In this document: positions 7,607-43,017 of the stretch, piece after piece
Layout of the letters: the number at the start of each line of letters is the position of its first letter
How positions within the stretch are numbered: position 1 is the first letter of the stretch
NCBI GenBank assembly: GCA_000990585.1
Contig: LBQD01000003.1
Span: forward strand, 15,504-79,503
From: Candidatus Moranbacteria bacterium GW2011_GWE2_35_2-
GTDB taxonomy: Bacteria > Patescibacteriota > Minisyncoccia > Moranbacterales > UBA9337
DNA length: 64,000 bases
Reading direction: 5' to 3'
Position numbers and translations under genes: made by a program
The notes under the pieces: generated by a model
The model's input: only the letters and a program-made list of their open reading frames with translations
Told to the model about the DNA's origin: nothing
Database searches by the model: none

Positions 7607-7731
7607 TTAGGGTGCAGTGATTATGAGCGGATGGGGAGAGTAGTTCCAATGACAAATCAAATCAAAAATCCAAATGACGAAATATAGCAATCGGCTTGAT
7701 TTTTAGCGTATTTTATGCTAATATATTAGAT

Positions 7732-9665: not shown

Positions 9666-12263
9666 ATGGAAATAAAGGTAAATACGGGCTCCGGAATAAA
9701 AAAAAACGATGAATATTTGGAAAGAACCAGAATTGAAAAATTTGCTCCTTCTGCGGAAAGCAAAACGGAACGGGTTTTTGCTTCAAAAATCGAACCTAAG
9801 CGAAATGCTTTTGTTTCGGAAATAAAAAAGGAAGTTAGCGGAAAAGAAAAGAAAGGCTTCCTTCATTTTTTTGGCAACATATCCGACAAAATTATCGGAC
9901 TGAGTATTTTTATGATTTTTTTCGGAGTGCCATTATTTTTTACCGGAATTACTTTTCAGGGAATATCATTTGAAAAACAAATTTATTTTTATCTTTGGTT
10001 GTTGGTTGGATTGGTGGCATGGTTGGCAAAAAGCATTAAAACCGGTGAGATGAGAATTCGCAAAACTCCATTGGATATTCCTATTTTTTTGTTTTGGGGT
10101 GCCTATCTCGCTTCGCTGGCTTTTTCCGTCGACCACTGGCACAGCTTTTTTGGATTTTTCGGAGATCCGTCAAGAGGATTTTTGAATGTGACGGCTTTTG
10201 TGGTGGCGTATTATTTCTTTTTCTCCCATATTGAAAAAGAAAGAATAAAATTGGCATTGGGGGCGATTGTTGCGAGCGGAACACTGGTGTCGGCTTGGAC
10301 GATTGTTCGCTTGTTGAATCTGCAAATTATCCCACAAGTTGTTTTAGAAAATTCTCCCGCAAGTTTGTTGGGATCTTTTTCGGGACTGAATATTTTTTTG
10401 GGAGTTTTTGTTCTTTTGTCCGTTGGCGCTATTTTGAAAATTGTTTCTTTGGAAAAATTGTCTAGCACAAAGAAAATAGTAACAATAATTTTTCTTTTTA
10501 TAGCTCTTTTTTTCGGTGCGGCAGCTTTTGTTTTAGTGCAAAGTTTTGCTTTTTGGCCGGCAATCTTGATTGGGAGTGGAATTTTTTCTTTATATGCTTT
10601 TTCTCGGGTAATAAAAATGCCTTTTCATTGGATTTGGCTTCCAATGGCGGTTTTCGTTTTTTTTATGGCAATTTTTATGGTGGGAGACAGAAATCTGAAT
10701 TTGTCGCGCGTGAGTTTGCCGGCGGAAGTGAGTCTCTCTTACGGATTATCATGGGATATTATCAAGGAAGGGATGAAAGAGAGTGTTATTTCCGGATCGG
10801 GACCGGCGACATATGGATACGCTTTTTCAAAATTCAAACCGCAAGATTTCAATCTAAATCAATTTTACGACTTGCGTTTCTATCAAGGTTCCGGGTTATT
10901 GTTTGAATCGGTTCCGACGATTGGAATTTTGGGAACAGTCTTTTTGTTTTTGTTGGTTTTTTCCTATCTGAGTGTTTCTGTCTATTTGATTTCACGGGAA
11001 AAGGATAAGGAAAAAACATTATCTTTATCGTTTTTTTCCGCTTCCGTTATTTTGATTTTGGGAATATTTATTTCTAAGGCTTCCGGTCCGATTGTTTTAC
11101 TTGGATTTTTAGTATCGGCAATGGCATTACTTTCAATTATTTTGGAAAGTGAGGCGCAGGCTAATTATTTTGATTTGTCGCTCAAAGCTTCTCCGAAATA
11201 TGCACTTTCTTTGGCTTTTGTTTTTGTAGTGCTCAGCAGTGCAATTGTTTTTTCTTTTGTTTTTTTGGGCAAAGTGTTTGCCAGTGACGCATTGGCAGGG
11301 ATAGCAATTAAGGAAAGCCGTGAGGATAGGGAAAAAGCGGTGGAGAAAATGCAACGAGCAATTGCGCTTAATCCGAAAGAGGGAAGATATTATACTCGTT
11401 TAGGACAGGAATATTTGATTTTAACCAATGAGCAAGCAATCGGAAAAGATGCGAAAAATAATACAGAGAAGATCAAAAAATATTTAAGTAATTCCATTCT
11501 TCTTTTGAACAAAGGAAAGGAATTGATGAATAATGATTTGAACGCAGTCGAAGGTTTGGCGCAGGCGTATGAAAATGCAGGACTCTATGTTTTTGAATCG
11601 AACAAAAAAGCATTGGAAAATTATGAAAGAGCTGCCGAGCTTGATCCGAATAATCCGAATTTACAGGTCAAGATTGGAAAGGTGCGGATGACTCTTTCCG
11701 GCGCTATGGAAGATAATGATGAGAAAAAGGCGTATATGGAAGATACTAAAAAAGTCTTGGAAAAATCCGTAGAACTGAAAAAGAACTTTGCTGACGGATA
11801 TTATAATTTGGCATTGGCTCAGGAGCAGATGGGATCGCTAGATTCTTCGGTTGCAAATATGGAAAAAGCTGCGACGCTCAGTCCTTCTAATGTGAATGTG
11901 TTTTTCAATTTGGGAAGATTATATCAAAAGCGTTCCGGCGAAGAAGATTTGAAAAAAGCGGAAGCTATTTTCAAAAAGATATTGGAAATAAACAAGGATG
12001 ATGTTAATACCAATTTTAGTCTCGGGCTTTTGTTCGAAAAAACCAACCGCAAAAATGAAGCGATTGAGCAATATCGAAAAGTCATTGCCCTAATTGAAAG
12101 CGGACAGCAAAATGAAATTGCGAAGAAAAATATTGAGCAAATAAACGCAATGATTTCAAATATTCAAAAAGGACAAAACAACAATGTTCAGCAAGTAGAG
12201 GAAAATGTTCTAGAAAATCAAGAACAAAAAATTCCAGAAGTTGAGGTTATCGAAGGGGAATAG
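9666..12263 (+). CDS. Polytopic membrane protein with an O-antigen ligase/polymerase-like (Wzy_C) core and a C-terminal TPR repeat domain
   Basis: About 12 transmembrane segments are followed by TPR-like repeats (ALNPKEGRYYTRLGQEYL, AAELDPNNPNLQVKIGKV, ATLSPSNVNVFFNLGRLYQK). This architecture is common in CPR genomes. Confidence 0.6.
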   Translation: MEIKVNTGSGIKKNDEYLERTRIEKFAPSAESKTERVFASKIEPKRNAFVSEIKKEVSGKEKKGFLHFFGNISDKIIGLSIFMIFFGVPLFFTGITFQGISFEKQIYFYLWLLVGLVAWLAKSIKTGEMRIRKTPLDIPIFLFWGAYLASLAFSVDHWHSFFGFFGDPSRGFLNVTAFVVAYYFFFSHIEKERIKLALGAIVASGTLVSAWTIVRLLNLQIIPQVVLENSPASLLGSFSGLNIFLGVFVLLSVGAILKIVSLEKLSSTKKIVTIIFLFIALFFGAAAFVLVQSFAFWPAILIGSGIFSLYAFSRVIKMPFHWIWLPMAVFVFFMAIFMVGDRNLNLSRVSLPAEVSLSYGLSWDIIKEGMKESVISGSGPATYGYAFSKFKPQDFNLNQFYDLRFYQGSGLLFESVPTIGILGTVFLFLLVFSYLSVSVYLISREKDKEKTLSLSFFSASVILILGIFISKASGPIVLLGFLVSAMALLSIILESEAQANYFDLSLKASPKYALSLAFVFVVLSSAIVFSFVFLGKVFASDALAGIAIKESREDREKAVEKMQRAIALNPKEGRYYTRLGQEYLILTNEQAIGKDAKNNTEKIKKYLSNSILLLNKGKELMNNDLNAVEGLAQAYENAGLYVFESNKKALENYERAAELDPNNPNLQVKIGKVRMTLSGAMEDNDEKKAYMEDTKKVLEKSVELKKNFADGYYNLALAQEQMGSLDSSVANMEKAATLSPSNVNVFFNLGRLYQKRSGEEDLKKAEAIFKKILEINKDDVNTNFSLGLLFEKTNRKNEAIEQYRKVIALIESGQQNEIAKKNIEQINAMISNIQKGQNNNVQQVEENVLENQEQKIPEVEVIEGE

Positions 12264-34164: not shown

Positions 34165-35616
34165 ATGCGAGAAGATATTTTGCAGACAAAATTGGAAAAA
34201 CTGAATAATTTGAAACAAGCTGGAATAGATGTTTTTCCGGAAAAATCCGAGCGTTCGATGAATAATTTCGAGGCTTTGGATGATTTTGATAAAATCAAAA
34301 AAACGATAATTTTGGTTGGGCGAGTGCGGTCAATGCGCGTGATGGGCGGATCGACGTTTGTTCATATTGAAGATGAGTCGGAAAAAATTCAATTATTTTT
34401 GAATAAGAAAAATATTCCCGAAGGCAAATACAGGTTATTCGTAAAAAATATTGAATTGGGAGATTTTGTCCAAGTAAGCGGAAAACTTTTCAAAACAAAA
34501 AAGGAAGAGAAGAGTTTGGAGGTGCATGATTGGAAAGTTCTGAGCAAAAATATCCGACCGATTCCGACCGAACATTTTGGCATCAAAGATACGGAAGAAC
34601 TTTTGCGAAGGAGATATTTGGATTTGCTTTCTAACGCGGAAACGCGGAAAATTTTTCGCAAGAAGAATATTTTTTGGCAAACTATTCGTAATTTTTTGGT
34701 TAGTGAAGGATTTTTAGAAGTGCAGACTCCGGTCTTGGAACATATTCCCGGGGGAGCGGAGGCTGATCCTTTTGTCACGCATTACAACGCTTTGGATGAG
34801 GATTTATATTTGCGTATTTCTTTGGAACTCCCACTCAAAAGGCTTTTGGTGGGAGGATATGAAAAAGTTTTTGAAATTGGCAGGGTTTTTCGCAATGAAG
34901 GAATGGATCGGGAGCATCTTCAGGAATTTGATCATATGGAATTTTACTGGGCTTATTCGGATTTATCCAAGGGAATGGAATTTTCCGAGAGGCTTTTTAA
35001 GACTATTATTATTAATGTTGTTGGGGGATATGAAACTGAATTTGAAGGTAATAAAATAGATTGGAACAAACCTTTTCCAAGAGTGGACTACTTTGAAGCT
35101 TTCAAAAAAGAGACAGGGTTGGATTTAAATGAAGCGGACTTGTCCGCCGAAGCTTTAAAAGCGAAGGCGGATGAACTGGGAATCAAATATGAGAAAGAAT
35201 ATGGAAAGGGAAGGATGATCGATACGATTTACAAAAAAACTGTTCGCCAAAAAATGATTCAGCCGTGTTTTTTGGTCGGGCATCCGATTGAGGTTTCTCC
35301 TTTGGCAAAAAGCGATCCAAATAATCCGAAAAAGGTTTTGCGGATGCAATTGGTGGCGGGAAAAAGTGAACTTTGCAATGCTTTTTCCGAACTTAATGAT
35401 CCAATTGAACAAAGAAAAAGATTTGAGGATCAGGTAAAACTTCGCGAGGCGGGAGACAAGGAGGCGCAAATGCTGGATGAGGATTTTATTGAGGCGATGG
35501 AATATGGAATGCCCCCGGCCTTCGGTTTCGGTTTCTCCGAACGTCTTTTCGCCTTCCTGATGAACAAATCCGTTCGAGAAACAGTAATCTTTCCACCAGT
35601 GAGGAGTAAGGAATAA
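34165..35616 (+). CDS. lysS: Lysyl-tRNA synthetase, class II
   Basis: N-terminal OB fold, then LYLRISLELPLKRLLVGGYEKVFEIGRVFRNEG (motif 2) and GFGFSERL (motif 3). Confidence 0.9.
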   Translation: MREDILQTKLEKLNNLKQAGIDVFPEKSERSMNNFEALDDFDKIKKTIILVGRVRSMRVMGGSTFVHIEDESEKIQLFLNKKNIPEGKYRLFVKNIELGDFVQVSGKLFKTKKEEKSLEVHDWKVLSKNIRPIPTEHFGIKDTEELLRRRYLDLLSNAETRKIFRKKNIFWQTIRNFLVSEGFLEVQTPVLEHIPGGAEADPFVTHYNALDEDLYLRISLELPLKRLLVGGYEKVFEIGRVFRNEGMDREHLQEFDHMEFYWAYSDLSKGMEFSERLFKTIIINVVGGYETEFEGNKIDWNKPFPRVDYFEAFKKETGLDLNEADLSAEALKAKADELGIKYEKEYGKGRMIDTIYKKTVRQKMIQPCFLVGHPIEVSPLAKSDPNNPKKVLRMQLVAGKSELCNAFSELNDPIEQRKRFEDQVKLREAGDKEAQMLDEDFIEAMEYGMPPAFGFGFSERLFAFLMNKSVRETVIFPPVRSKE

Positions 35617-35622
35617 ATTATT

Positions 35623-36492
35623 ATGAAAAACAAGAATATTGGAGTTTTGATTTATACCTACAATAGAGTGGATGATGCCAGGATAAACATGGAAATTATC
35701 AGAAATGTTTGGCAAAAGGATGTTTTTTTTGATAACGTAAAAATTATCCATTCTTTTAACGGAAAAAAAGAGTGGTATCCCGAAAGATATCTAGAAGATT
35801 ATCTAATAACAACAAAAAATACTTGGCATTTTCAAGGCGCATCAGATTTGATTGATGTTGGTATAAAAAAATTTAAAAATGATGTTGATTATGTAATTAT
35901 CTTAGCTGCTGATACATGGCTTATTAATCCAAATTATTTAAAGGATATTATAAATAAAATGGATAAGGAAGGGCTTCTTTTGACTACTTGCGCTTGGGGA
36001 GTGGCTGAAAAAAATGATATAAAAGATGTTGGTATGGCAGTTGATTTTTTTATTGTTAATTTAAAATGGGCGAGAAAATATAAAATGTTTCCTGTTAATT
36101 ATGGAGAGTTTTATAAAAAATACGGAGAATTGTTTTTGTATAAAAATGGTGGAAATGTAATGCTGGAGAAATTAACGTTGATGCGTTTTATGACAGCGAT
36201 TGCAAGGGAGCAAAAATTTGGCGGTTCAGCTAGAAAAAGAGCTTTTGAGAGAATATTTATTTTAAAAGACAGAGAACCTGTACATTCTCATATTAATGGA
36301 GATGGGAATTGGGAGAGAAAAATGTATTGGCCAGAAATGGGTCTTTTGACACACCATGAAGTGGCACCTAAAAAAGAGATTTTTAAAGAAAATAAAATAA
36401 ATGAGGGCTATAATATTGAAAAATTATTAGAAAGTGATGATTTAGAATATTTTAATAATGGATTCACTAAAGGAAAATATAGTGCTAATTAA
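35623..36492 (+). CDS. Hypothetical protein (289 aa)
   Basis: ORF directly coupled to lysS. No recognisable motif. A nucleotide-sugar transferase-like fold is only a guess. Confidence 0.4.
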   Translation: MKNKNIGVLIYTYNRVDDARINMEIIRNVWQKDVFFDNVKIIHSFNGKKEWYPERYLEDYLITTKNTWHFQGASDLIDVGIKKFKNDVDYVIILAADTWLINPNYLKDIINKMDKEGLLLTTCAWGVAEKNDIKDVGMAVDFFIVNLKWARKYKMFPVNYGEFYKKYGELFLYKNGGNVMLEKLTLMRFMTAIAREQKFGGSARKRAFERIFILKDREPVHSHINGDGNWERKMYWPEMGLLTHHEVAPKKEIFKENKINEGYNIEKLLESDDLEYFNNGFTKGKYSAN

Positions 36493-36638
36493 TTTAAAAT
36501 AATATGGGAATTGTCGTTGAGTTTAATCCGGATTTGGCGCTGAGATACATTACTTGACTTAATGGTGTTTTCGTGTATAATGAGCTGTTGAAGCAGTAGT
36601 TATTTAAAAAATATTGTTAATACATAATAGGTGAACGC

Positions 36639-37004
36639 ATGGATAATGAAAGAAAAGATTTTTCTTTGTTTGGTATGCTTGTATTGGCGTTGGTTATTTT
36701 TTTAGTGATTATCTCTGAAATGTGGGATTTTTTAAGGAGTTTAATGCTCATAAAAATAACTGAATTTGAAAAAACTGAGAAAAAAATCATTTTTAGAAAG
36801 AAGAAAAAGGAATTGTTTGTTCTCGAGAAGTATGACAAGTATGCTGTAGGTTTTGGAAAGAATACGATAACGTTCGAATATTTCGGATGTGCTCTGCAAG
36901 GGGATTGTCATAATTTCAGAATTTCTCAAGAAAATAGAGAAAGACTAAAAAAGATACTTACGCCTTCACATCTTTTGTATGAAGGAGATGCGTATCGTTT
37001 CTAA
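36639..37004 (+). CDS. Hypothetical small membrane-anchored protein
   Basis: Transmembrane segment near the N-terminus. No motif. Confidence 0.35.
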   Translation: MDNERKDFSLFGMLVLALVIFLVIISEMWDFLRSLMLIKITEFEKTEKKIIFRKKKKELFVLEKYDKYAVGFGKNTITFEYFGCALQGDCHNFRISQENRERLKKILTPSHLLYEGDAYRF

Positions 37005-37019
37005 AAAAAGGAGATAAAA

Positions 37020-37241
37020 ATGAAAAAATGTGTGATAGGTTTTCTGTCTTCAGGAATAGCAGCATGCATTTTTATCGTGGTAGCACTTATTTTTGCTATT
37101 TTCAATATGGATAGTGGTGTTGCTACTTGCCTGTGTGGTACTGCGTTTTCGTTTGTAATATGTGTGATGTTTTTCATCAAATTTTATTTGTGTGGACATT
37201 CAATGACAGACATAAAGGAGCTATTATGTGATTGTGAATAA
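37020..37241 (+). CDS. Hypothetical small membrane protein (73 aa), Cys-rich
   Basis: Two transmembrane segments. Confidence 0.3.
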   Translation: MKKCVIGFLSSGIAACIFIVVALIFAIFNMDSGVATCLCGTAFSFVICVMFFIKFYLCGHSMTDIKELLCDCE

Positions 37242-37776
37242 TATTGTGAAAATGTGCGAGGATAAAGCTTGCCAATCAGTTGATTGTCGCGAGCTTTTTT
37301 ATTTGTCAAAATGGGTTATTTGCAGTATTGTTTAAATGTAATATTTTTCTATAAATTATGGGAATTGTCGTTGAATTTAATCCGGATTTAGCGTTGATGG
37401 ATATTTCGGAGCATAAATCCGGAAAAAGGAAAATCCAAGAATGTGTACCGGAGAACCTCAAGGCGGGAGAGGTTTTTGAATTTCTCAAAAAAGGTCAAAG
37501 ATTGTATTGACTCAGTGATAGCGAGTTTTGGAGTGGCGGTCAAATTCCGCTTTGTAAAACCGGAGGCGATGAAAAATTGTCCCGTCCGATTGCCAGCATA
37601 AAAATCCTGGAATCGACCCATTTTTTGGAAAACGGAGAAATTTGGACAAAAGGAAAATATAAAGTCATCGATGTTTTCGATGAAAACGACCCGAAAATAA
37701 ATTTCGAAAGCTTGAAAAGAGTGATATAGTGAAAGCACAAAACATAAAAAACTTAACAAATGAACCTGAAATTTAT

Positions 37777-37807
37777 ATATTACCATATTTCGTAATATGG
37801 TAATAAG
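37777..37807. promoter_or_regulatory. 31-nt palindromic site (ATATTACCATAT-ttcgta-ATATGGTAATAAG), copy 1, upstream of the yerC-like gene
   Basis: 9-bp inverted-repeat arms TTACCATAT/ATATGGTAA with a 6-bp spacer. Identical to 38300-38330. Lies 59 nt upstream of the regulator's ATG. Confidence 0.55.
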
Positions 37808-37865
37808 ATAAATATAGGTGTGAAATATAGGTAAAAATAAAATTATTCTAAATATAAATAAAAAA

Positions 37866-38276
37866 ATGTCCAAGGTTAATCCGTATCAAATTGACAGTAA
37901 AGAAAAATATATCGTTATAAATGATATGTTTGAAGTTATTTCCGGATTAAAAACAAAAAAAGAAATCGTGGACTTTTTTTTGGGTTTATTTACTCCTAGT
38001 GAATCCCTGATGATTGCCAGAAGGATACAAATTGCCAAGATGCTGTTGGATGAAGAAAATTATGAATCAATAAGAAAGAAGCTGGGAGTTGGAAATAATA
38101 ATATCCAGCAAGTTGATCGATGGATTCACAGGGAAGGAAGTGATTATGAAAAAATGATTAAAAATAAGATAGGAAAATTAAAAAATAAAGAAGGGAGTAA
38201 AAAATATTATAACCCTGAAAAAAGCCTATTGGATAAATATCCATATCACAGATTCATTAAAAATTTATTTAATTAG
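37866..38276 (+). CDS. TrpR-like / YerC-YecD family DNA-binding protein
   Basis: FFLGLFTPSESLMIARRIQIAKMLLDEENYESIRKKLGVGNNNIQQVDRW matches the TrpR_YerC/YecD helix-turn-helix core. Confidence 0.7.
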   Translation: MSKVNPYQIDSKEKYIVINDMFEVISGLKTKKEIVDFFLGLFTPSESLMIARRIQIAKMLLDEENYESIRKKLGVGNNNIQQVDRWIHREGSDYEKMIKNKIGKLKNKEGSKKYYNPEKSLLDKYPYHRFIKNLFN

Positions 38277-38299
38277 TCAGATAAATTTTTTCAATATAC

Positions 38300-38330
38300 A
38301 TATTACCATATTTCGTAATATGGTAATAAG
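38300..38330. promoter_or_regulatory. 31-nt palindromic site, copy 2, between the yerC-like gene and the CYTH gene
   Basis: Identical to 37777-37807. Lies 33 nt upstream of the CYTH start codon. Confidence 0.55.
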
Positions 38331-38362
38331 GAAAATTTAGTTATGACGAAACCTTTTAAAAT

Positions 38363-38950
38363 ATGCAAATAGAATATGAGGCGACATTTGCGGATGTTGA
38401 TAAAAATGAAGTTCGGGAAAGATTGGAAAAATCCGGAGCCATTTTGAAGCGGCCGGAATTTTTGCAAAAGCGAATAACTTTTAATTTGCCAAAAGGACAT
38501 GAAATTGAAGGTGGATGGCTACGGGTTCGCGATGAAGGAGATAAGATTACTATGACTCTTAAAGTTGTTGATGGCAATAAAATTCATAATCAAAAAGAGA
38601 CAATCTTAGTAGTTGATAGTTTCGATGAAGCTGTTAATTTTTTGGAAGGTATTGGTTGCAAGAAAAAATCATATCAAGAAACCAAAAGAGAACTTTGGCT
38701 TTTGGATGATGTGGAAATTACGATTGATGAATGGCCGTTTCTCGAACCCTGCGTTGAAGTTGAGGGAAAATCGGAAAAGGCGGTGAAAAATGTTTCTGAA
38801 AAAATCGGATTTGATTATGGGCAAGCTTTGTTTTGTTGTGTGACGACCTTGTATAATATGAAATATGGTACGCCGGAAGAAGTTATCAATAATCAGATTG
38901 CGGAAATAACTTTTGAAGGCGATAATCCGTTTGAAAAATTAAAAATATGA
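38363..38950 (+). CDS. CYTH-domain protein (triphosphate tunnel metalloenzyme)
   Basis: N-terminal EYEATF (the ExExK-like start), WLRVRDEGDKITMTLK, EIEVEV-like acidic strands. Size ~190 aa. Confidence 0.65.
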   Translation: MQIEYEATFADVDKNEVRERLEKSGAILKRPEFLQKRITFNLPKGHEIEGGWLRVRDEGDKITMTLKVVDGNKIHNQKETILVVDSFDEAVNFLEGIGCKKKSYQETKRELWLLDDVEITIDEWPFLEPCVEVEGKSEKAVKNVSEKIGFDYGQALFCCVTTLYNMKYGTPEEVINNQIAEITFEGDNPFEKLKI

Positions 38951-39534
38951 AAAAGGTTATTTTGGCTACAACTTCGCCGTATCGGCAGGAACTTTTCCGT
39001 CTGATCGGAATTGAGTTTGAAGCTATCGGCAGCGATGTTGATGAGAAATTTGACGGGAGGCCGAATGGTCCGGATGAGCTAGTGGAAGAGCTTGCGCGGC
39101 AAAAAGCGCAGGCGGTGGCAGAAAAAGTCAACAAGGGGATTGTTGTCGGTTTTGATTCCGTCGGGTGGTTCGGCGGAAAGATATTGGAAAAACCAAAATC
39201 AAAAGAAGAAGCGATGGAAAGATTAAAGAATCTTTCCGGAAGTTCATTTCAATTTTACACCGGAATTTTTTTAGTTGATGCTGAAAACGGGAGGACTATG
39301 AAATCCGTTGTGAAAACCGATGTAAATATGCGAGATATCGATGAAAAAGAAATTGAAAAATATCTGAGTCAAGACGATAAATTCAGCACTTATGCGCTTG
39401 GGTTTGATCCGCTCGTGCATTACAGCGCGACTTTTGTGAAAAATATTTCCGGCAGTTATAATAATCTGACCCGGGGAATTCCAATTGAATGCGTTGTGGA
39501 GATGCTTAAGAAAATGGGAGTGATAATTGATTGA
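38947..39534 (+). CDS. maf: Maf-like nucleoside triphosphate pyrophosphatase
   Basis: KVILATTSPYRQELFRLIGIEFEAIGSDVDE...GFDSV...KP. Its start overlaps the CYTH stop (ATGA). Confidence 0.85.
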   Translation: MKKVILATTSPYRQELFRLIGIEFEAIGSDVDEKFDGRPNGPDELVEELARQKAQAVAEKVNKGIVVGFDSVGWFGGKILEKPKSKEEAMERLKNLSGSSFQFYTGIFLVDAENGRTMKSVVKTDVNMRDIDEKEIEKYLSQDDKFSTYALGFDPLVHYSATFVKNISGSYNNLTRGIPIECVVEMLKKMGVIID

Positions 39535-39555
39535 TAATAATAAAAAAATAATTTT

Positions 39556-39930
39556 ATGAAAATAGAAATTATCGGGAGTTCCGTTTTTGCAAAACAAATG
39601 GTCAAATATCGCGATAAACTTATTGCGCTTGGACATGAAAATAATCTGCATGAGCATTATGTCGCGCAAGCAAAAGGAGAAATGAAAGATGTGATTGAAA
39701 GAATGAATGTCGAACACGCACAGGTTAAAATTGAAAATGATTATATTAAATACCACTACAATAAAATTGTGGAAAGCGATGCTGTTCTGGTTTTGAATTT
39801 TGATAAAAATGGAGTGAAAAATTATGTAGGCGGAAATACACTTATGGAGTTGGGATTTGCCTATGTGCATAATAAGAAAATTTTTCTGCTTAATCCGATT
39901 CCGGAGATGGCGTACAAGGATGAAATTTAG
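39556..39930 (+). CDS. Hypothetical protein (124 aa)
   Basis: MKIEIIGSS...; no confident motif. A Rossmann-like nucleoside 2-deoxyribosyltransferase-like fold is possible. Confidence 0.4.
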   Translation: MKIEIIGSSVFAKQMVKYRDKLIALGHENNLHEHYVAQAKGEMKDVIERMNVEHAQVKIENDYIKYHYNKIVESDAVLVLNFDKNGVKNYVGGNTLMELGFAYVHNKKIFLLNPIPEMAYKDEI

Positions 39931-40013
39931 GCAGTGCAACCGATTGTTATTGAGGGTGATTTGAATAAAATAAAATGAAGTATTTTTTTAATTCGTTTAA
40001 TGTTTGAAAAAAT

Positions 40014-40610
40014 ATGGATAAAAATAAGATTGAGAAGTTGGAAAAAAAAATAAAAAAGATGCATTTGAATCCGGCGCAGGGGGATTTGAAGGGATTTGAT
40101 TGGGAAATGCGCAAAGAATACCTTTCTGGATTTTGGGAATATCATGTTCAAAAAGTCGTGGAGTACGCGGATAAGCTTGCAAAAAAGTATAATGCTGACG
40201 GAGATATCGCGCATCTCGGCGCGCTTCTTCATGACATCTCACTGGTGGATGATGAAAAAATGCATGATGAGTTGGGCGCGATAAAAGCGAAAAAAATCCT
40301 GCTTGAAGAGGGATTTGACGAAGAAACGGCACAGAAAGTTTCCGATATCGCACTTAAACATAGATGCCAGAAGTTTGTTCCTGAAACTTTGGAAGAAAAA
40401 ATCGTGGCGACGGCGGACACGATGTCACATTTTTTGCCGTCATATTATCTTGGAATCGCTGTGATTGCCAGAGAAGATTATGCAAACGTTGTTGCCAAAA
40501 AAAACATCGAAAAACTAGAACAAAGTTATCGAGAAAAGATATTTTTTGAAGATGAAAGAAAAGAGTTTCAAGGAAAAATCAAAGAATTTCGAAAATGGTT
40601 CGGGAATTAA
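40014..40610 (+). CDS. HD-domain phosphohydrolase
   Basis: H...HD motif (HLGALLHDISLVDD) and a downstream D. Confidence 0.75.
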   Translation: MDKNKIEKLEKKIKKMHLNPAQGDLKGFDWEMRKEYLSGFWEYHVQKVVEYADKLAKKYNADGDIAHLGALLHDISLVDDEKMHDELGAIKAKKILLEEGFDEETAQKVSDIALKHRCQKFVPETLEEKIVATADTMSHFLPSYYLGIAVIAREDYANVVAKKNIEKLEQSYREKIFFEDERKEFQGKIKEFRKWFGN

Positions 40611-40623
40611 TTTTAAATCAGAG

Positions 40624-41217
40624 ATGAAGATTCTAATTGCAACGACAAATGAAAACAAGCTTGACCAGTTTCGAGAAATTTTCAAAATCCATGGGGCTGA
40701 TTTTGAATTATTGTCGCTCCAAGACGTTGAAATTTTCGATGATGTCGAGGAAAATGCTGAAACGCTAATGGAAAATGCGAAAAAGAAAGCGGAGTATTTC
40801 GGAAAAAAGTCCAGTTTGATTTCTTTGTCTGATGACACCGGTCTTTTTGTTGATGCGCTTTCCGGCGCTCCGGGACTTCATTCGAAAAGATGGCACAAAG
40901 GAAGCGATTTTGATCGATGTTTGAAATTGCAGGAAAAATTGAAACATATTCCGGAAAAGGAAAGGACTTGCCGATATATCGGCGCTTTGGCGATTTATAA
41001 TCCTGAAAATGATGAATTTTTTGAATTTGAAAACAAGGCGGAAGGATATATTACGGATGATTTTCGCGGTGAAGCGGATTTTGGATATGACAAAATTTTT
41101 CATTCTTTGCATTTTGGAAAAAATTATGCCCAACTTTCGGAAAAAGAAAAAGCGCAAATCAGCCATCGGGGATTGGGAATAAAAAAATATTTGGACAGTT
41201 TGAAAAAAAATGAATAA
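40624..41217 (+). CDS. rdgB: Non-canonical purine NTP pyrophosphatase (RdgB/Ham1/ITPase family)
   Basis: KILIATTNENKL...SLSDDTGL.VDAL.G.PG..S.R..., FGYD, SHRG. Start chosen at the ATG at 40624; the track ORF starts upstream at 40546. Confidence 0.8.
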   Translation: MKILIATTNENKLDQFREIFKIHGADFELLSLQDVEIFDDVEENAETLMENAKKKAEYFGKKSSLISLSDDTGLFVDALSGAPGLHSKRWHKGSDFDRCLKLQEKLKHIPEKERTCRYIGALAIYNPENDEFFEFENKAEGYITDDFRGEADFGYDKIFHSLHFGKNYAQLSEKEKAQISHRGLGIKKYLDSLKKNE

Positions 41218-41629
41218 AATAAAAAAAAAGAAAGTGATGGTTTTTGGGACTTTTGATATTTTTCATCCGGGACATCGGAGTTTTTTGAATCAGGCGAAAA
41301 AATATGGAAATTATTTGATTGTGGTTGTAGCAAGAGATAAAACAGTCAAAGTTTTCAAAAAACAAGATACGAAAAATAAGGAGAAAGTACGAACGAAGAT
41401 GATTCAAGAAAGTGCTTTGGCGGATGAGGTGATTTTGGGGAGTTTGGGAGATAAATATGCAATCATAAAAAAGCGCAAACCGAATGTGATTTGTTTGGGA
41501 TACGACCAGGAATTTTTTATTGAAAATTTAAAAAGTAAATTAAAAGAATTTGGATTAATCAAAACGGAAATTATTCGATTGAAATCATATAAACCGGAAA
41601 TATATAAATCTTCAAAATTAAGGAAATAG
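41210..41629 (+). CDS. Cytidylyltransferase-like small nucleotidyltransferase (RibL/TagD-like)
   Basis: VMVFGTFDIFHPGHRSFL matches the (H/T)xGH cytidylyltransferase signature. Confidence 0.65.
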   Translation: MNKIKKKKVMVFGTFDIFHPGHRSFLNQAKKYGNYLIVVVARDKTVKVFKKQDTKNKEKVRTKMIQESALADEVILGSLGDKYAIIKKRKPNVICLGYDQEFFIENLKSKLKEFGLIKTEIIRLKSYKPEIYKSSKLRK

Positions 41630-41700
41630 AACATTTTTTCTTGTTGCAAAAAAATCTTCAAAATGTTAATATATCTTTATATTAAAGGAGAAAAAACTTT

Positions 41701-43017
41701 ATGCTGGATATTAAATTTATTAGAGAAAACAGTGCGGAATTGAAAAAGGCCATTGAAAACAAGAATATTGATCTTGATTTGGAGCGTCTTTTGAATTTGG
41801 ATAAGGAGAGAGTGAAGATGATGCAGGAAATCGAAGAGCTTCAGGCTCAGAAAAATAAAATAAACGAAGAAATACAGAAATCTAAAGATAAAAAATCAGT
41901 TATTGAAAAGGGAAAAGAAATAAAAGAGAAACTTTCCAGATTAGAGCCACTTGGCGAGAAATTACAAAAAGAATTTGAAGATTTGATGATAAAAGTTCCA
42001 ACTATTCCTTCAGAAGATACGCCGATTGGGAAGGATAGCAGTGAAAATGTGGAAATCGAAAAATGGGGAGAGATTGTGCAATTTACTTTCGCGCCAAAAA
42101 CACATATTCAAATTGCTAAAGATTTGGACATTATTGATTTTGATCGTGGAGCAAAAGTTGCCGGATACCGCGGATATTATATGAAAAATGAGGGAGCGCT
42201 TTTGCAAATGGCTTTGATGATGTTTGCGTTGGAAAAATTAATTCAAAAAGGCTTTGTTCCGATTATTCCTCCGACATTAGTCAAAGAATTTGTGCTTTGC
42301 GGGACGGGATATTTTTCCGGAAGAAATTTCAATCCAGAAATTGATGAAATTTACAAAATTGAAAATATCGATAAAACGGAAGACGGAAGGGCAAATAAAG
42401 AAAACAAATTTTTGGTTGGAACCGCTGAGCCATCCTTATTGGCTTATTATGCCAATGAAATTTTGGACGCGTCAAAACTTCCTGTGAAATTTTGCGGTTT
42501 TTCCCAATGCTATCGCAGTGAAATCGGAAGTTATGGAAAAGATACAAAAGGATTATATCGCGTGCATGAGTTTATGAAAGTGGAGCAAATTTGTATGACA
42601 GAAAACAATATTGAACAATCGAATAAAATGCATTTGGAAATGGTGGAAATTTCCAAAGAACTTCATCGGGAATTAGGATTGCCATATCGCGTACTGAGTA
42701 TTTGTACCGGAGATATGAGTGCGGGAAAATACAAGATGTTTGACTTGGAGGCGTGGATGCCGGGAATGAATCGTTGGGGGGAAACCGGATCGGCTTCTAA
42801 TTTTTTGGATTGGCAGGCGCGTCGGTTGAATGTGAAATACAAAGATACGGACGGAAAAAACAAATTTGTGCATATGATAAACAATACTGCTATACCGTCG
42901 CCGAGAATGATAATTTCAATTCTGGAAAATTACCAGCAGGCTGATGGAAGTGTTGTGATTCCGGAAGTGCTCAGAAAGTGGATGCCGGGAGGCGTGGAAA
43001 AAATCGAAGCAAAATAA
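41701..43017 (+). CDS. serS: Seryl-tRNA synthetase
   Basis: N-terminal coiled-coil arm, class II motifs (FRSEIGS..G.DT.GL.R.HEF.KVE) and GSAS... Confidence 0.9.
   Translation: MLDIKFIRENSAELKKAIENKNIDLDLERLLNLDKERVKMMQEIEELQAQKNKINEEIQKSKDKKSVIEKGKEIKEKLSRLEPLGEKLQKEFEDLMIKVPTIPSEDTPIGKDSSENVEIEKWGEIVQFTFAPKTHIQIAKDLDIIDFDRGAKVAGYRGYYMKNEGALLQMALMMFALEKLIQKGFVPIIPPTLVKEFVLCGTGYFSGRNFNPEIDEIYKIENIDKTEDGRANKENKFLVGTAEPSLLAYYANEILDASKLPVKFCGFSQCYRSEIGSYGKDTKGLYRVHEFMKVEQICMTENNIEQSNKMHLEMVEISKELHRELGLPYRVLSICTGDMSAGKYKMFDLEAWMPGMNRWGETGSASNFLDWQARRLNVKYKDTDGKNKFVHMINNTAIPSPRMIISILENYQQADGSVVIPEVLRKWMPGGVEKIEAK

What the first reader, a model, noticed from the sequence alone, without database searches (positions are those of the whole stretch)
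37777..38330. Two identical 31-nt palindromic sites bracketing a TrpR/YerC-like regulator: candidate operator controlling a nucleotide house-cleaning operon
ATATTACCATATttcgtaATATGGTAATAAG (9-bp inverted arms, 6-bp spacer) occurs twice, 100% identical. One copy is 59 nt upstream of the yerC/trpR-like gene and one is 33 nt upstream of the CYTH gene, which begins a co-directional run CYTH–Maf–(hyp)–HD–RdgB/Ham1–cytidylyltransferase–SerRS. This is the architecture of an autoregulated repressor that also gates the downstream operon.
Basis: partly seen in the sequence, partly recalled or inferred. Interest (0 to 1): 0.55.

Follow-up and report, generated by a model that had tools for sequence, protein, structure and literature searches.

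The report
Self-bracketing operator pair of a TrpR-like regulator
Two identical 28-bp palindromes flank a small TrpR/YerC-like regulator gene in a Moranbacteria (CPR) genome, and about 60 related genomes show the same flanking arrangement with lineage-specific palindromes, so these are most likely the regulator's own operators, controlling itself and the nucleotide house-cleaning genes downstream.

Summary
The 31-mer occurs exactly twice, at 37777-37807 and 38300-38330, with zero expected by chance. It is a perfect palindrome with 12-bp arms and a 4-nt spacer, not 9+6. The gene between the copies is a Trp_repressor/YerC-YecD family protein. The downstream run CYTH-Maf-hyp-HD-Ham1-cytidylyltransferase-SerRS is confirmed.

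The core TTACCATAT-N6-ATATGGTAA recurs 55 times in 18 Patescibacteria MAGs with GC 0.30-0.63. That is 1-10 copies per genome, always including the flanks of the yerC-like gene where it is present.

Among 66 distinct homologues, 55 share an exact word of at least 14 nt between their up- and downstream flanks. Only 12 of 389 control genes do. The palindrome differs between lineages but keeps the same distance from the dyad.

Genes behind the sites are enriched for HD, CYTH, MazG, Maf, TatD, TagA/WecG and TagD-like enzymes.

Binding, direction of regulation and effector are untested. The protein is not TrpR and not the histidine repressor HisR. I rate it a new variant of a known kind.

The parts
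37777..37807 (.). Site 1. The 31-nt exact repeat containing the perfect 28-bp palindrome 37778-37805 (12-bp arms, TCGT spacer). Proposed auto-operator of the yerC-like gene.
   Evidence: (I15). A homologous position upstream of yerC-like genes is seen.
37753..37781 (+). Sigma-70-like promoter candidate TTAACA-17-TATATT. Its -10 overlaps the left edge of site 1, so a predicted transcription start would fall inside the palindrome.
   Evidence: 10 of 12 matches; consensus scan only. Analogous TTGACA-17-TATAAA lies just before a site in L022, and TTGACA lies 12 nt before the site in L059.
37866..38276 (+). 136-aa TrpR-fold, YerC/YecD-family protein. The putative recognition helix is GVGNNNIQQVDRW (residues about 74-86). 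It carries a conserved C-terminal extension, ..SLLDKYPYHRFIKNLF.
   Evidence: Pfam; NCBIfam; PDB sequence search; AF2 model; Foldseek; homologues.
38300..38330 (.). Site 2. An identical 31-mer (palindrome 38301-38328), 23 nt after the yerC-like stop codon and 32 nt before the CYTH start. Proposed operator or roadblock gating the downstream gene run.
   Evidence: (I16). The conserved position just after the yerC-like stop (median 27 nt) is shown.
38363..38950 (+). CYTH-domain protein, the first gene behind site 2. It is absent in the closest relative L014, where site 2 directly precedes maf.
   Evidence: CYTH also lies behind sites in L002, L078, L130.
38947..39534 (+). Maf nucleotide pyrophosphatase. 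It overlaps the CYTH stop by 4 nt.
   Evidence: Maf lies directly behind a site in L014 and L047.
39556..39930 (+). 124-aa protein with only a sub-threshold Nuc_deoxyrib_tr match.
   Evidence: E 0.0032, 18 bits against cut-off 28.8; no NCBIfam hit.
40014..40610 (+). HD-domain phosphohydrolase.
   Evidence: HD genes lie behind sites in L029, L047, L123.
40546..41217 (+). Ham1/RdgB-type non-canonical NTP pyrophosphatase. The listed TTG start overlaps the HD gene, so the true start is probably further downstream.
41210..41629 (+). Small cytidylyltransferase-like protein (TagD/RibL-like size).
   Evidence: The same family lies directly behind the downstream site in L068, L135, L138.
41701..43017 (+). 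Seryl-tRNA synthetase, at the end of the co-directional run. It is the syntenic anchor of the island, and its membership of the regulated unit is uncertain.

Best explanation
The two palindromes are operators for the 136-aa TrpR-fold YerC-like protein encoded between them.

Proposed mechanism (inferred): a dimer, or possibly two tandem dimers given the 28-30-bp length, binds each site through the helix-turn-helix. Site 1 overlaps the -10 and start region of the regulator's own promoter and gives negative autoregulation. Site 2 lies 23 nt after the regulator's stop codon and 32 nt before CYTH. It blocks either initiation or read-through into the CYTH-Maf-(hyp)-HD-Ham1-cytidylyltransferase run. 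As in TrpR and HisR, occupancy is probably set by a small-molecule ligand, which is unknown here.

What is shown:
- The sites exist, are far beyond chance, and sit at these positions.
- The protein has the TrpR/YerC fold.
- The site-gene-site arrangement is conserved across the protein family with lineage-specific site sequences.
- Further copies lie before other genes in related genomes.

What is inferred: binding, repression rather than activation, ligand control, and the extent of the transcription unit.
For: (1) The sites are exact, unique in the window and perfectly palindromic.

(2) Protein family. Pfam Trp_repressor scores 47.1 bits and TIGR02531 YerC/YecD scores 42.4 against a 42.2 cut-off. 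The closest solved structures are the YerC-like proteins 3FRW, 3G1C and 3KOR (target TM about 0.8), followed by E. coli TrpR (TM about 0.7). Family precedent is strong: TrpR and HisR (the B. subtilis YerC orthologue) bind 20-bp palindromes, and hisR is preceded by its own site in about half of genomes (PMC9413887).

(3) Genome-scale recurrence. The core TTACCATAT-N6-ATATGGTAA occurs 55 times in 18 Patescibacteria MAGs of GC 0.30-0.63. The flanks are conserved out to a 30-bp palindrome. A yerC-like gene starts 7-72 nt downstream in 9 of 9 loci that carry a site next to a yerC-like gene.

(4) Flanking statistic. 55 of 66 distinct homologues (34-97% identity) share an exact word of at least 14 nt between both flanks, against 12 of 389 control ORFs. 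The median distances are 48 nt from site to ATG, 27 nt from stop to site, and 43 nt from site to the next gene.

(5) Lineage-specific sequences. The site sequence differs between lineages, for example TAATCCATTAATGGATTA in L067 (recognition helix SSQMIHNT), CAATATACTAGTATATTG, CTATGATAT..ATATCATAG and CCCACGTTCTAGAACGTGGG. All copies within a locus change together.

(6) Shared geometry. Aligned on the dyad, all variants keep the same layout: C at -9, A-T-A-T-A at -7 to -3, and variable bases at -8 and -10 to -12.

(7) A residue-base association. Base -8 is A only when residue 78 is Ala or Ser (6 of 6). With Arg, Gln, Asn or His at residue 78, base -8 is C in 16 of 18 cases. Fisher p = 3.6e-5, not corrected for phylogeny.

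(8) Separate control of neighbouring genes. L047 has four sites, one each before yerC, HD, a 138-aa protein and Maf. In the closest relative L014, site 2 precedes maf directly because CYTH is absent.

(9) Promoter overlap. Promoter-like hexamers place the -10 and start at the left arm in the window, L022 and L059.
Against: There is no experimental binding or expression data.

A global Mantel test of recognition-helix identity against operator identity was not significant (rho 0.035; 497 of 2000 permutations reached it). Only near-identical proteins clearly share operators, so co-variation with the helix is qualitative.

No sigma-70-like promoter was detected at site 2.

Sites often lie only 2-30 nt after the preceding stop codon. 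One exact site in a close relative lies between the convergent 3' ends of gatB and miaA (L028), and one is intragenic (L029). Not every copy can be a promoter operator.

The identity of the downstream gene is not conserved. In the 52-gene target set, TagA/WecG occurs 7 times and serine hydrolase 4-5 times. The target set is therefore not limited to house-cleaning genes.

Nearby repeats could in principle be homogenised by recombination, although remote copies on other contigs argue against this.
Confidence: 0.72

Rival explanations
1. The same protein binds, but site 2 (and perhaps site 1) works as a protein roadblock or insulator, or through site1-site2 looping, rather than by promoter occlusion. 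In tightly packed co-directional CPR genomes, the pair would isolate the regulator gene from upstream read-through and meter read-through into the next genes.
For: No promoter-like hexamers were found at site 2, and no terminator lies between yerC and CYTH on the + strand. The downstream site tracks the yerC stop codon (median 27 nt), whatever gene follows. In L047 the intergenic gaps are almost entirely filled by the palindrome. L068 has three tandem sites upstream of yerC. Centre-to-centre spacing is about 470-650 bp.
Against: Spacing is set by gene length and is not phased. Site 1 does overlap a good promoter-like element, as do sites in L022 and L059. Remote single sites lie 10-90 nt before gene starts, as expected for ordinary operators.
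Confidence: 0.18
2. The palindromes act at the RNA level, as hairpins that terminate, attenuate or stabilise transcripts. Their association with yerC would then be incidental or reflect an RNA-binding role.
For: Each copy folds into a 12-bp hairpin of -12 to -15 kcal/mol, z = -4 to -5.5. Many copies lie a few nt after a stop codon, and one lies between convergent genes.
Against: No U-tract follows the stem, and there is no Rfam family. All copies in a genome share the same sequence, not merely the same pairing. The AT-rich sequence is kept unchanged in genomes of 60% GC. Imperfect copies show recurrent A/T differences at one arm position (CCATAT against CCTTAT, for example in L085, L087, L115), which break pairing instead of compensating. 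Bases keep a fixed distance from the dyad across lineages, as expected for a dimeric DNA binder. The encoded protein has a DNA-binding TrpR fold.
Confidence: 0.06
3. The palindrome is bound by a different factor, or is a lineage-specific promoter element (its arm TGGTAATAT resembles an extended -10). The YerC-like gene would then be just one member of that regulon.
For: The right arm reads TG-G-TAATAT/TAATAA, similar to TGnTATAAT. The target genes are heterogeneous.
Against: Variant palindromes in other lineages, such as CCCACGTTCTAGAACGTGGG and TGTCCATATAACCACATATGGACA, have no -10 resemblance yet occupy the same two positions around the yerC-like gene. The 83% against 3% flanking contrast singles out this gene. 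Sigma-70 recognition is not expected to change this fast (established knowledge).
Confidence: 0.04

Closest known systems
HisR (B. subtilis YerC orthologues; histidine repressor, TrpR family; PMC9413887)
   Same: Both belong to the Pfam/NCBIfam family PF01371 and TIGR02531. The best structural matches are HisR-type proteins (3G1C, 3FRW). Both have a palindromic operator with an unconserved centre, and the regulator gene is often preceded by its own site.
   Different: - Operator: CCATAT..ATATGG type, 24-30 bp, against cacTTTAnnnnnnTAAAgtg.
- Recognition helix: GVGNNNIQQV against GASTATISRV.
- Helix 2: the HisR acidic positions compared (FFEDVCTINE..FEV) are mostly replaced (FFLGLFTPSE..IQI).
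- Size: a conserved C-terminal extension of about 35 aa.
- Targets: nucleotide hydrolases, TagA/TagD-like enzymes and others, and no his genes.
- Architecture: a second site immediately downstream of the regulator gene is the rule.
E. coli TrpR (tryptophan repressor) and its trpR/trpEDCBA/aroH operators
   Same: Both share the fold (Foldseek target TM about 0.7) and a dimeric helix-turn-helix logic. Both are autoregulated through an operator overlapping their own promoter. TrpR dimers can bind in tandem on long operators. An Arg equivalent to TrpR Arg54 is invariant here (R53; alignment by eye, inference).
   Different: It scores far below the TrpR equivalog cut-off (20.3 against 67.25 bits). 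Identity is 13-14%. The operator differs from TGTACTAGTTAACTAGTACA. The DNA-contacting residues I79/A80/T81/T83/R84 are replaced by N/N/N/Q/Q. There are no trp genes in the neighbourhood.
NrdR and NrdR-boxes (nucleotide-sensing repressor of ribonucleotide reductase genes)
   Same: It offers a functional analogy only: a small repressor with AT-rich palindromic boxes that controls nucleotide-pool genes.
   Different: The protein family is unrelated (zinc ribbon plus ATP-cone), the box sequence is different, and the boxes occur as phased tandem pairs upstream of nrd genes. This comparison rests on recalled knowledge and was not tested here.

Membership tests
Trp_repressor superfamily (Pfam PF01371) | Match to the family HMM above the gathering threshold | tested here: met
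   47.1 bits against cut-off 27, covering residues 19-100 and profile positions 4-86 of 88. All 86 close homologues carry PF01371.
Trp_repressor superfamily (Pfam PF01371) | TrpR-type all-helical fold with the helix-turn-helix as helices D and E | tested here: met
   The AF2 model has pLDDT 85-94 over residues 11-90. The top Foldseek PDB hits are 3FRW, 3KOR and 3G1C (target TM 0.74-0.84), followed by about 30 E. coli TrpR entries (TM 0.66-0.76).
YerC/YecD family (NCBIfam TIGR02531) | Score above the curated cut-off | tested here: met
   42.4 bits against cut-off 42.2, which is borderline.
TrpR proper (NCBIfam TIGR01321 equivalog) | Score above the equivalog cut-off | tested here: not met
   20.3 bits against 67.25.
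TrpR proper | Operator of the TGTAcTnGTnnACnAgTACA type next to trp/aro genes | tested here: not met
   The sites are TATTACCATATT-TCGT-AATATGGTAATA. The neighbours are CYTH, Maf, HD and Ham1.
HisR (histidine repressor) | Operator consensus cacTTTAnnnnnnTAAAgtg (PMC9413887) | tested here: not met
   The dyad-aligned consensus of 37 operators of this subfamily is C-C-A-T-A-T-A at positions -9 to -3. The window sites agree.
HisR (histidine repressor) | Sites upstream of his biosynthesis or histidine transport genes | tested here: not met
   Among 52 genes directly behind sites, no histidine biosynthesis enzyme or histidine transporter family appears among the 25 Pfam families listed of 42. PRA-PH (3 members) is the short MazG-like NTP pyrophosphohydrolase type of 107-120 aa.
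HisR (histidine repressor) | Conserved acidic residues in helix 2, proposed to bind histidine | tested here: not met
   In the HMMER alignment to 3FRW and 3G1C, FFEDVCTINELLSLSQRFEV aligns with FFLGLFTPSESLMIARRIQI, so only one of the four acidic positions compared is kept. The feature itself is taken from PMC9413887.
HisR (histidine repressor) | Histidine-dependent DNA binding | not testable with these tools
   This needs an EMSA with and without L-histidine.
Autoregulated palindrome-binding repressor (functional class) | Cognate palindromic site in the regulator's own 5' region, conserved across orthologues | tested here: met
   9 of 9 TTACCATAT-type loci. There are 70 upstream sites in 60 loci. 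The median distance to the ATG is 48 nt.
Autoregulated palindrome-binding repressor (functional class) | Protein binds the site and lowers transcription | not testable with these tools
   This requires an EMSA or footprint and a reporter or transcript assay.

The most novel reading that the evidence does not exclude
This CPR-specific long YerC-like subfamily would be a principal transcription factor of Moranbacteria and related Patescibacteria. Its operators evolve fast and always enclose its own gene. The pair would act as a ligand-controlled gate (roadblock or insulator) in promoter-poor, co-directional genomes. It would couple an unknown metabolite signal, plausibly a nucleotide or nucleotide-derived compound, to nucleotide-pool sanitation (Maf, Ham1, HD, MazG, NUDIX, CYTH) and to enzymes using nucleotide-activated envelope precursors (TagA/WecG, TagD-like, RfbA). 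The roughly 25 natural protein-operator variants with fixed geometry would then amount to a readable recognition code for the TrpR-type helix, for example residue 78 Ala/Ser with A, Arg/Gln/Asn/His with C, and Asp with G at base -8.
Probability: 0.25. Interest if true: 0.7.

Novelty: new variant of a known kind. Interest (0 to 1): 0.5.

Why it matters
I know of no experimentally defined transcription factor-operator pair for Candidate Phyla Radiation bacteria, which are largely uncultivated. My searches of the held literature found nothing on TrpR/YerC-like regulators in Patescibacteria.

This finding gives a concrete pair that can be tested in vitro: a 136-aa protein and a 31-mer. It also gives a provisional regulon linking nucleotide house-cleaning enzymes and cell-envelope nucleotide-sugar enzymes.

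It widens the TrpR family beyond amino-acid repressors (Trp, His) to a subfamily with a different operator, a C-terminal extension and a different target set.

The many natural operator variants with conserved geometry are useful material for studying how helix-turn-helix specificity evolves.

Tried and rejected
- **Further sites in the window.** A PWM scan and a 3-mismatch scan found none. A weak hit at 7670 from an 18-mer probe is spurious.
- **Global helix-operator co-variation.** The Mantel test was not significant. An all-against-all mutual-information scan gave top pairs at residues 67, 70 and 74 that look phylogenetic rather than contact-based. I therefore keep only the single chemically sensible residue 78/base -8 association, and only as a lead.
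- **RNA family or tRNA explanation.** No Rfam hit came near a gathering score. There are no tRNA genes next to the sites that lack a neighbouring ORF.
- **Generic repeat or mobile cassette.** Copy number is low. The yerC island is syntenic between LysRS and SerRS. Similarity between the two window copies decays right outside the site (54 nt at 87%).
- **Non-Patescibacteria matches.** The 19 matches of the core pattern outside Patescibacteria (Flavobacterium, Veillonella, Acinetobacter and others) are single copies, often intragenic. About 9 or more chance hits are expected for 18 fixed bases in 596 Gb (my own estimate).
- **P0068 contigs.** These returned gene tables but no DNA.
- **L066/L067.** They have no TTACCATAT site at up to 4 mismatches. 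This led to the discovery of their different palindrome.
- **Literature.** Searches for YerC in CPR and for CPR regulons returned nothing relevant.
Full report
**1. Observation**

The 31-mer ATATTACCATATTTCGTAATATGGTAATAAG occurs at 37777-37807 and 38300-38330 and nowhere else in the window, even with 3 mismatches. None were expected in shuffled sequence. The looser core TTACCATAT-N6-ATATGGTAA gives the same two hits against 0.08 expected.

The arms are 12 bp (TATTACCATATT / AATATGGTAATA), fully complementary, around a 4-nt spacer (I15/I16). Similarity between the two copies extends to 54 nt at 87% and then decays (D2), so this is not a large duplication.

A PWM built from 52 related sites scores both copies at 43.4 of a possible 46.4 bits, while the next best position in 64 kb scores -6.

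The 136-aa product of 37866-38276 is Trp_repressor PF01371. It is followed by CYTH, Maf, a 124-aa protein with only a sub-threshold deoxyribosyltransferase match, HD, Ham1, a small cytidylyltransferase-like protein and SerRS. All are co-directional, with overlaps or gaps of at most 83 nt.

**2. Source of the window**

The region is 92-94% identical at the nucleotide level to a contig of a Candidatus Moraniibacteriota MAG (L014, JALNYX010000015) and about 79% identical further out. All close protein homologues come from Moranbacteria/Parcubacteria-type metagenome bins. The window is therefore from a Moranbacteria (Patescibacteria/CPR) genome with GC 0.36.

**3. The palindrome in other genomes**

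A scan of one genome per species (596 Gb) with the core pattern returned 65 loci. Forty-six of them, carrying 55 sites, belong to 18 Patescibacteria-type MAGs. Three of these are labelled 'uncultured Bdellovibrionales', but one of the three (CAZRUH, locus L047) carries the YerC-like gene, and I treat all three as Patescibacteria-like on that basis. These MAGs have 1-10 exact-core copies each.

The rest are single copies in unrelated bacteria, often inside genes. That number is about what chance gives for 18 fixed bases in this much DNA (my estimate).

The sites are conserved unchanged in genomes from GC 0.30 to 0.63. In the GC-rich MAG JAGWYL the palindrome even extends to 36-48 bp. The consensus over 52 sites is a 30-bp palindrome, aTA-TTACCATAT-TAYRTA-ATATGGTAA-TAt.

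In every locus that holds a site next to a yerC-like gene, including every pair of sites 500-550 bp apart, a YerC-like gene starts 7-72 nt after one site (cluster 0: L003, L014, L030, L038, L045, L047, L059, L064 and the window).

L047 is especially telling. Four sites precede four consecutive genes: yerC-like, HD, a 138-aa protein and Maf. In L014, the closest relative, the CYTH gene is missing and site 2 sits directly before maf. The site therefore goes with the head of the downstream unit, not with a particular gene.

**4. The site-gene-site arrangement is a family trait and the sequence is lineage-specific**

I fetched 80 metagenome loci encoding homologues of 34-60% identity. Almost every one has a palindrome both upstream and just downstream of the gene, identical within a locus but different between lineages. 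Examples:
- GTTACAATATttcagTATATTGTAAC
- GAATCCATATATCCATTTATGGATTC
- TGTCCATATAACCACATATGGACA
- CAATATACTAGTATATTG
- CTATGATATAATGTAATATCATAG
- CCCACGTTCTAGAACGTGGG
- TAATCCATTAATGGATTA (L066/L067/L082, which have no TTACCATAT site)

Quantitatively, 55 of 66 distinct genes share an exact word of at least 14 nt between their 260-nt flanks (39 share at least 20 nt). Only 12 of 389 other ORFs in the same loci do.

The geometry is tight:
- Site to ATG: median 48 nt.
- Stop to downstream site: median 27 nt.
- Downstream site to next start: median 43 nt.
- The next gene is co-directional in 43 cases and convergent in 5.

When 37 well-formed operators are aligned on their dyad, they show one common architecture. 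C is at -9 (0.78), A-T-A-T-A occupies -7 to -3 (0.72-0.86), and the lineage-specific bases are at -8 and -10 to -12. This is what a conserved dimeric DNA binder with drifting specificity would leave.

**5. Is the enclosed protein the binder?**

The case rests on four points.

(a) Only this gene is flanked in this way.

(b) It has a TrpR fold. The AF2 model is confident over residues 11-90. The top Foldseek hits are the YerC-like structures 3FRW, 3KOR and 3G1C, followed by E. coli TrpR.

(c) There is family precedent. TrpR and HisR bind 20-bp palindromes and often autoregulate (PMC9413887).

(d) Protein and site change together. Near-identical proteins have near-identical operators, and different recognition helices go with different operators.

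I tried to make point (d) quantitative and must report that a global Mantel test was not significant (rho 0.035). Operator identity saturates near the AT-rich baseline except for protein pairs with at least 90% helix identity.

One position-specific association is chemically sensible. Base -8 is A only when residue 78 (the equivalent of TrpR Ala80) is Ala or Ser (6 of 6). With Arg, Gln, Asn or His, base -8 is C in 16 of 18 cases. With Asp it is G, C or T. Fisher p = 3.6e-5. This is not corrected for shared ancestry, and I treat it as a lead.

**6. Target genes**

For the TTACCATAT lineages, genes within reach of remote sites include GatB, Tgt, UvrC, family-4 UDG, RfbA, riboflavin synthase, PRPP synthetase, HtrA, DUF488, DUF167, DUF1761, a serine hydrolase and an uncharacterised 118-aa protein.

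Across all lineages, I scanned 52 genes directly behind sites:

| Family | Members |
|---|---|
| WecG/TagA | 7 |
| Ser_hydrolase | 4-5 |
| Cytidylyltransferase-like | 3 |
| HD | 3 |
| CYTH | 3 |
| MazG-type PRA-PH | 3 |
| TatD | 2 |
| Maf | 2 |
| NUDIX | 2 |
| SDR | 2 |
| DUF3467 | 2 |
| Tag glycosylase | 1 |

In 140 background ORFs from the same loci, none of WecG, HD, CYTH, Maf or MazG reached two members. NUDIX (6) and Ser_hydrolase (3) were present as neighbours.

The theme is nucleotide-pool hydrolases plus enzymes using nucleotide-activated envelope precursors, but the set is variable. The interval between LysRS and SerRS is a variable island of such genes in several lineages.

**7. Mechanism**

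Site 1 overlaps a promoter-like TTAACA-17-TATATT whose -10 ends at 37781. Clear TTGACA boxes lie at compatible distances before sites in L022 and L059. A bound protein would therefore cover the -10 and start region, which is classical autorepression.

At site 2 no promoter-like hexamers and no terminator were found. It may block a weak promoter or act as a roadblock to read-through from the yerC promoter.

Context analysis in low-GC relatives shows that sites lie in short tandem intergenic gaps (21 of 31), often only 2-30 nt after the preceding stop. One lies between convergent gatB and miaA, and one is intragenic. Some copies therefore cannot be promoter operators, which keeps the roadblock/insulator variant alive.

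An RNA-hairpin reading has some support: dG of -12 to -15 kcal/mol. It is disfavoured for several reasons. There is no U-tract and no Rfam family. Copies within a genome share sequence identity rather than just pairing. Imperfect copies show recurrent pair-breaking A/T differences at one arm position. AT-rich sequence is retained in GC-rich genomes.

**8. Comparison with known systems**

The protein passes Pfam PF01371 and, barely, TIGR02531 YerC/YecD (42.4 against 42.2). It fails the TrpR equivalog (20.3 against 67.25).

B. subtilis YerC is HisR, the histidine repressor (PMC9413887). This protein is not HisR by any testable criterion:
- The operator is different.
- The recognition helix is GVGNNNIQQV against GASTATISRV.
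- The acidic helix-2 positions compared are largely absent.
- No his genes lie behind the sites.
- It carries a conserved C-terminal extension of about 35 aa (L122, K124, Y125 and H128 are nearly invariant). AF2 leaves this extension unstructured in the monomer.

The subfamily comprises about 108 clusters at 50% identity with E up to 1e-10, and 719 with E up to 1e-3. I found no literature on it.

**9. Verdict**

This is a new variant of a known kind: a TrpR-family repressor with a palindromic auto-operator. Three features appear undescribed. The first is the near-universal site-gene-site arrangement. The second is the fast-diverging operator with fixed geometry. The third is a target set centred on nucleotide sanitation and nucleotide-sugar enzymes in CPR bacteria.

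The effector is unknown.

Noticed in passing
window 37358-37729 (+); fragment at 36503-36543: A 123-codon ORF (MGIVVEFNPDLAL...) just upstream of site 1 carries an in-frame TGA at 37508-37510. Orthologues in L014 (93% identity) and L019 have Trp (TGG) at that position, so this copy is a pseudogene or contains a sequencing error. The family has no Pfam or NCBIfam match. In L019 a TTACCATAT site lies 44 nt before this gene. A 41-nt copy of its 5' end (93%) sits at 36503-36543 and is followed by stop codons.
   Followed up: partly
window 38363-38950 versus L014:2002-2062: The CYTH gene behind site 2 is absent in the closest relative (92-94% nt identity on both sides). A recent insertion or deletion has therefore changed which gene sits first behind the operator.
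   Followed up: yes
L028:6414-6437 (JALNYX010000006, same MAG as L014): An exact copy of the palindrome fills the 55-nt gap between the convergent 3' ends of gatB and miaA. In two other MAGs (L009, L027) a site lies upstream of gatB instead.
   Followed up: partly
L009, L021, L026, L057, L058, L062 (CAZRUH); L013, L034, L037 (JAGWYL): Many exact sites lie within about 30-130 nt of contig ends, and several share identical flanks. The assemblies seem to break at this repeated perfect palindrome, so site counts per MAG are lower bounds.
   Followed up: no
L002:4200-4247, L055, L013 (MAG JAGWYL, GC about 0.60): In this GC-rich genome the palindrome is extended to 36-48 bp (AAAGGCAAAATG-TTACCATATATACATATATGGTAA-CATTTTGCCTTT). 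No yerC-like gene was seen in the 8-kb loci fetched around these sites.
   Followed up: no
window 34165-43017; L066-L069 and the gene tables: The interval between lysyl- and seryl-tRNA synthetase genes is a variable island of small nucleotide-metabolism genes (HD, NUDIX, Maf, CYTH, dNK-like, MazG-like, cytidylyltransferase). The yerC-like gene is embedded in it across several Moranbacteria lineages.
   Followed up: partly
L068/L069:9756-9915 and 10443-10466: One lineage (P0070, seen on more than 100 contigs) has three tandem sites spaced 59-77 bp apart upstream of the yerC-like gene, plus one downstream before a cytidylyltransferase-like gene. The centre of these sites is asymmetric (TTACCATAC-AACTAC-ATATGGTAA).
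   Followed up: no
window 38344-38373: A 9-codon ORF (ATGACGAAACCTTTTAAAATATGCAAATAG), preceded by AAGGA, lies between site 2 and the CYTH start and overlaps that start in another frame. Its significance is unknown.
   Followed up: no
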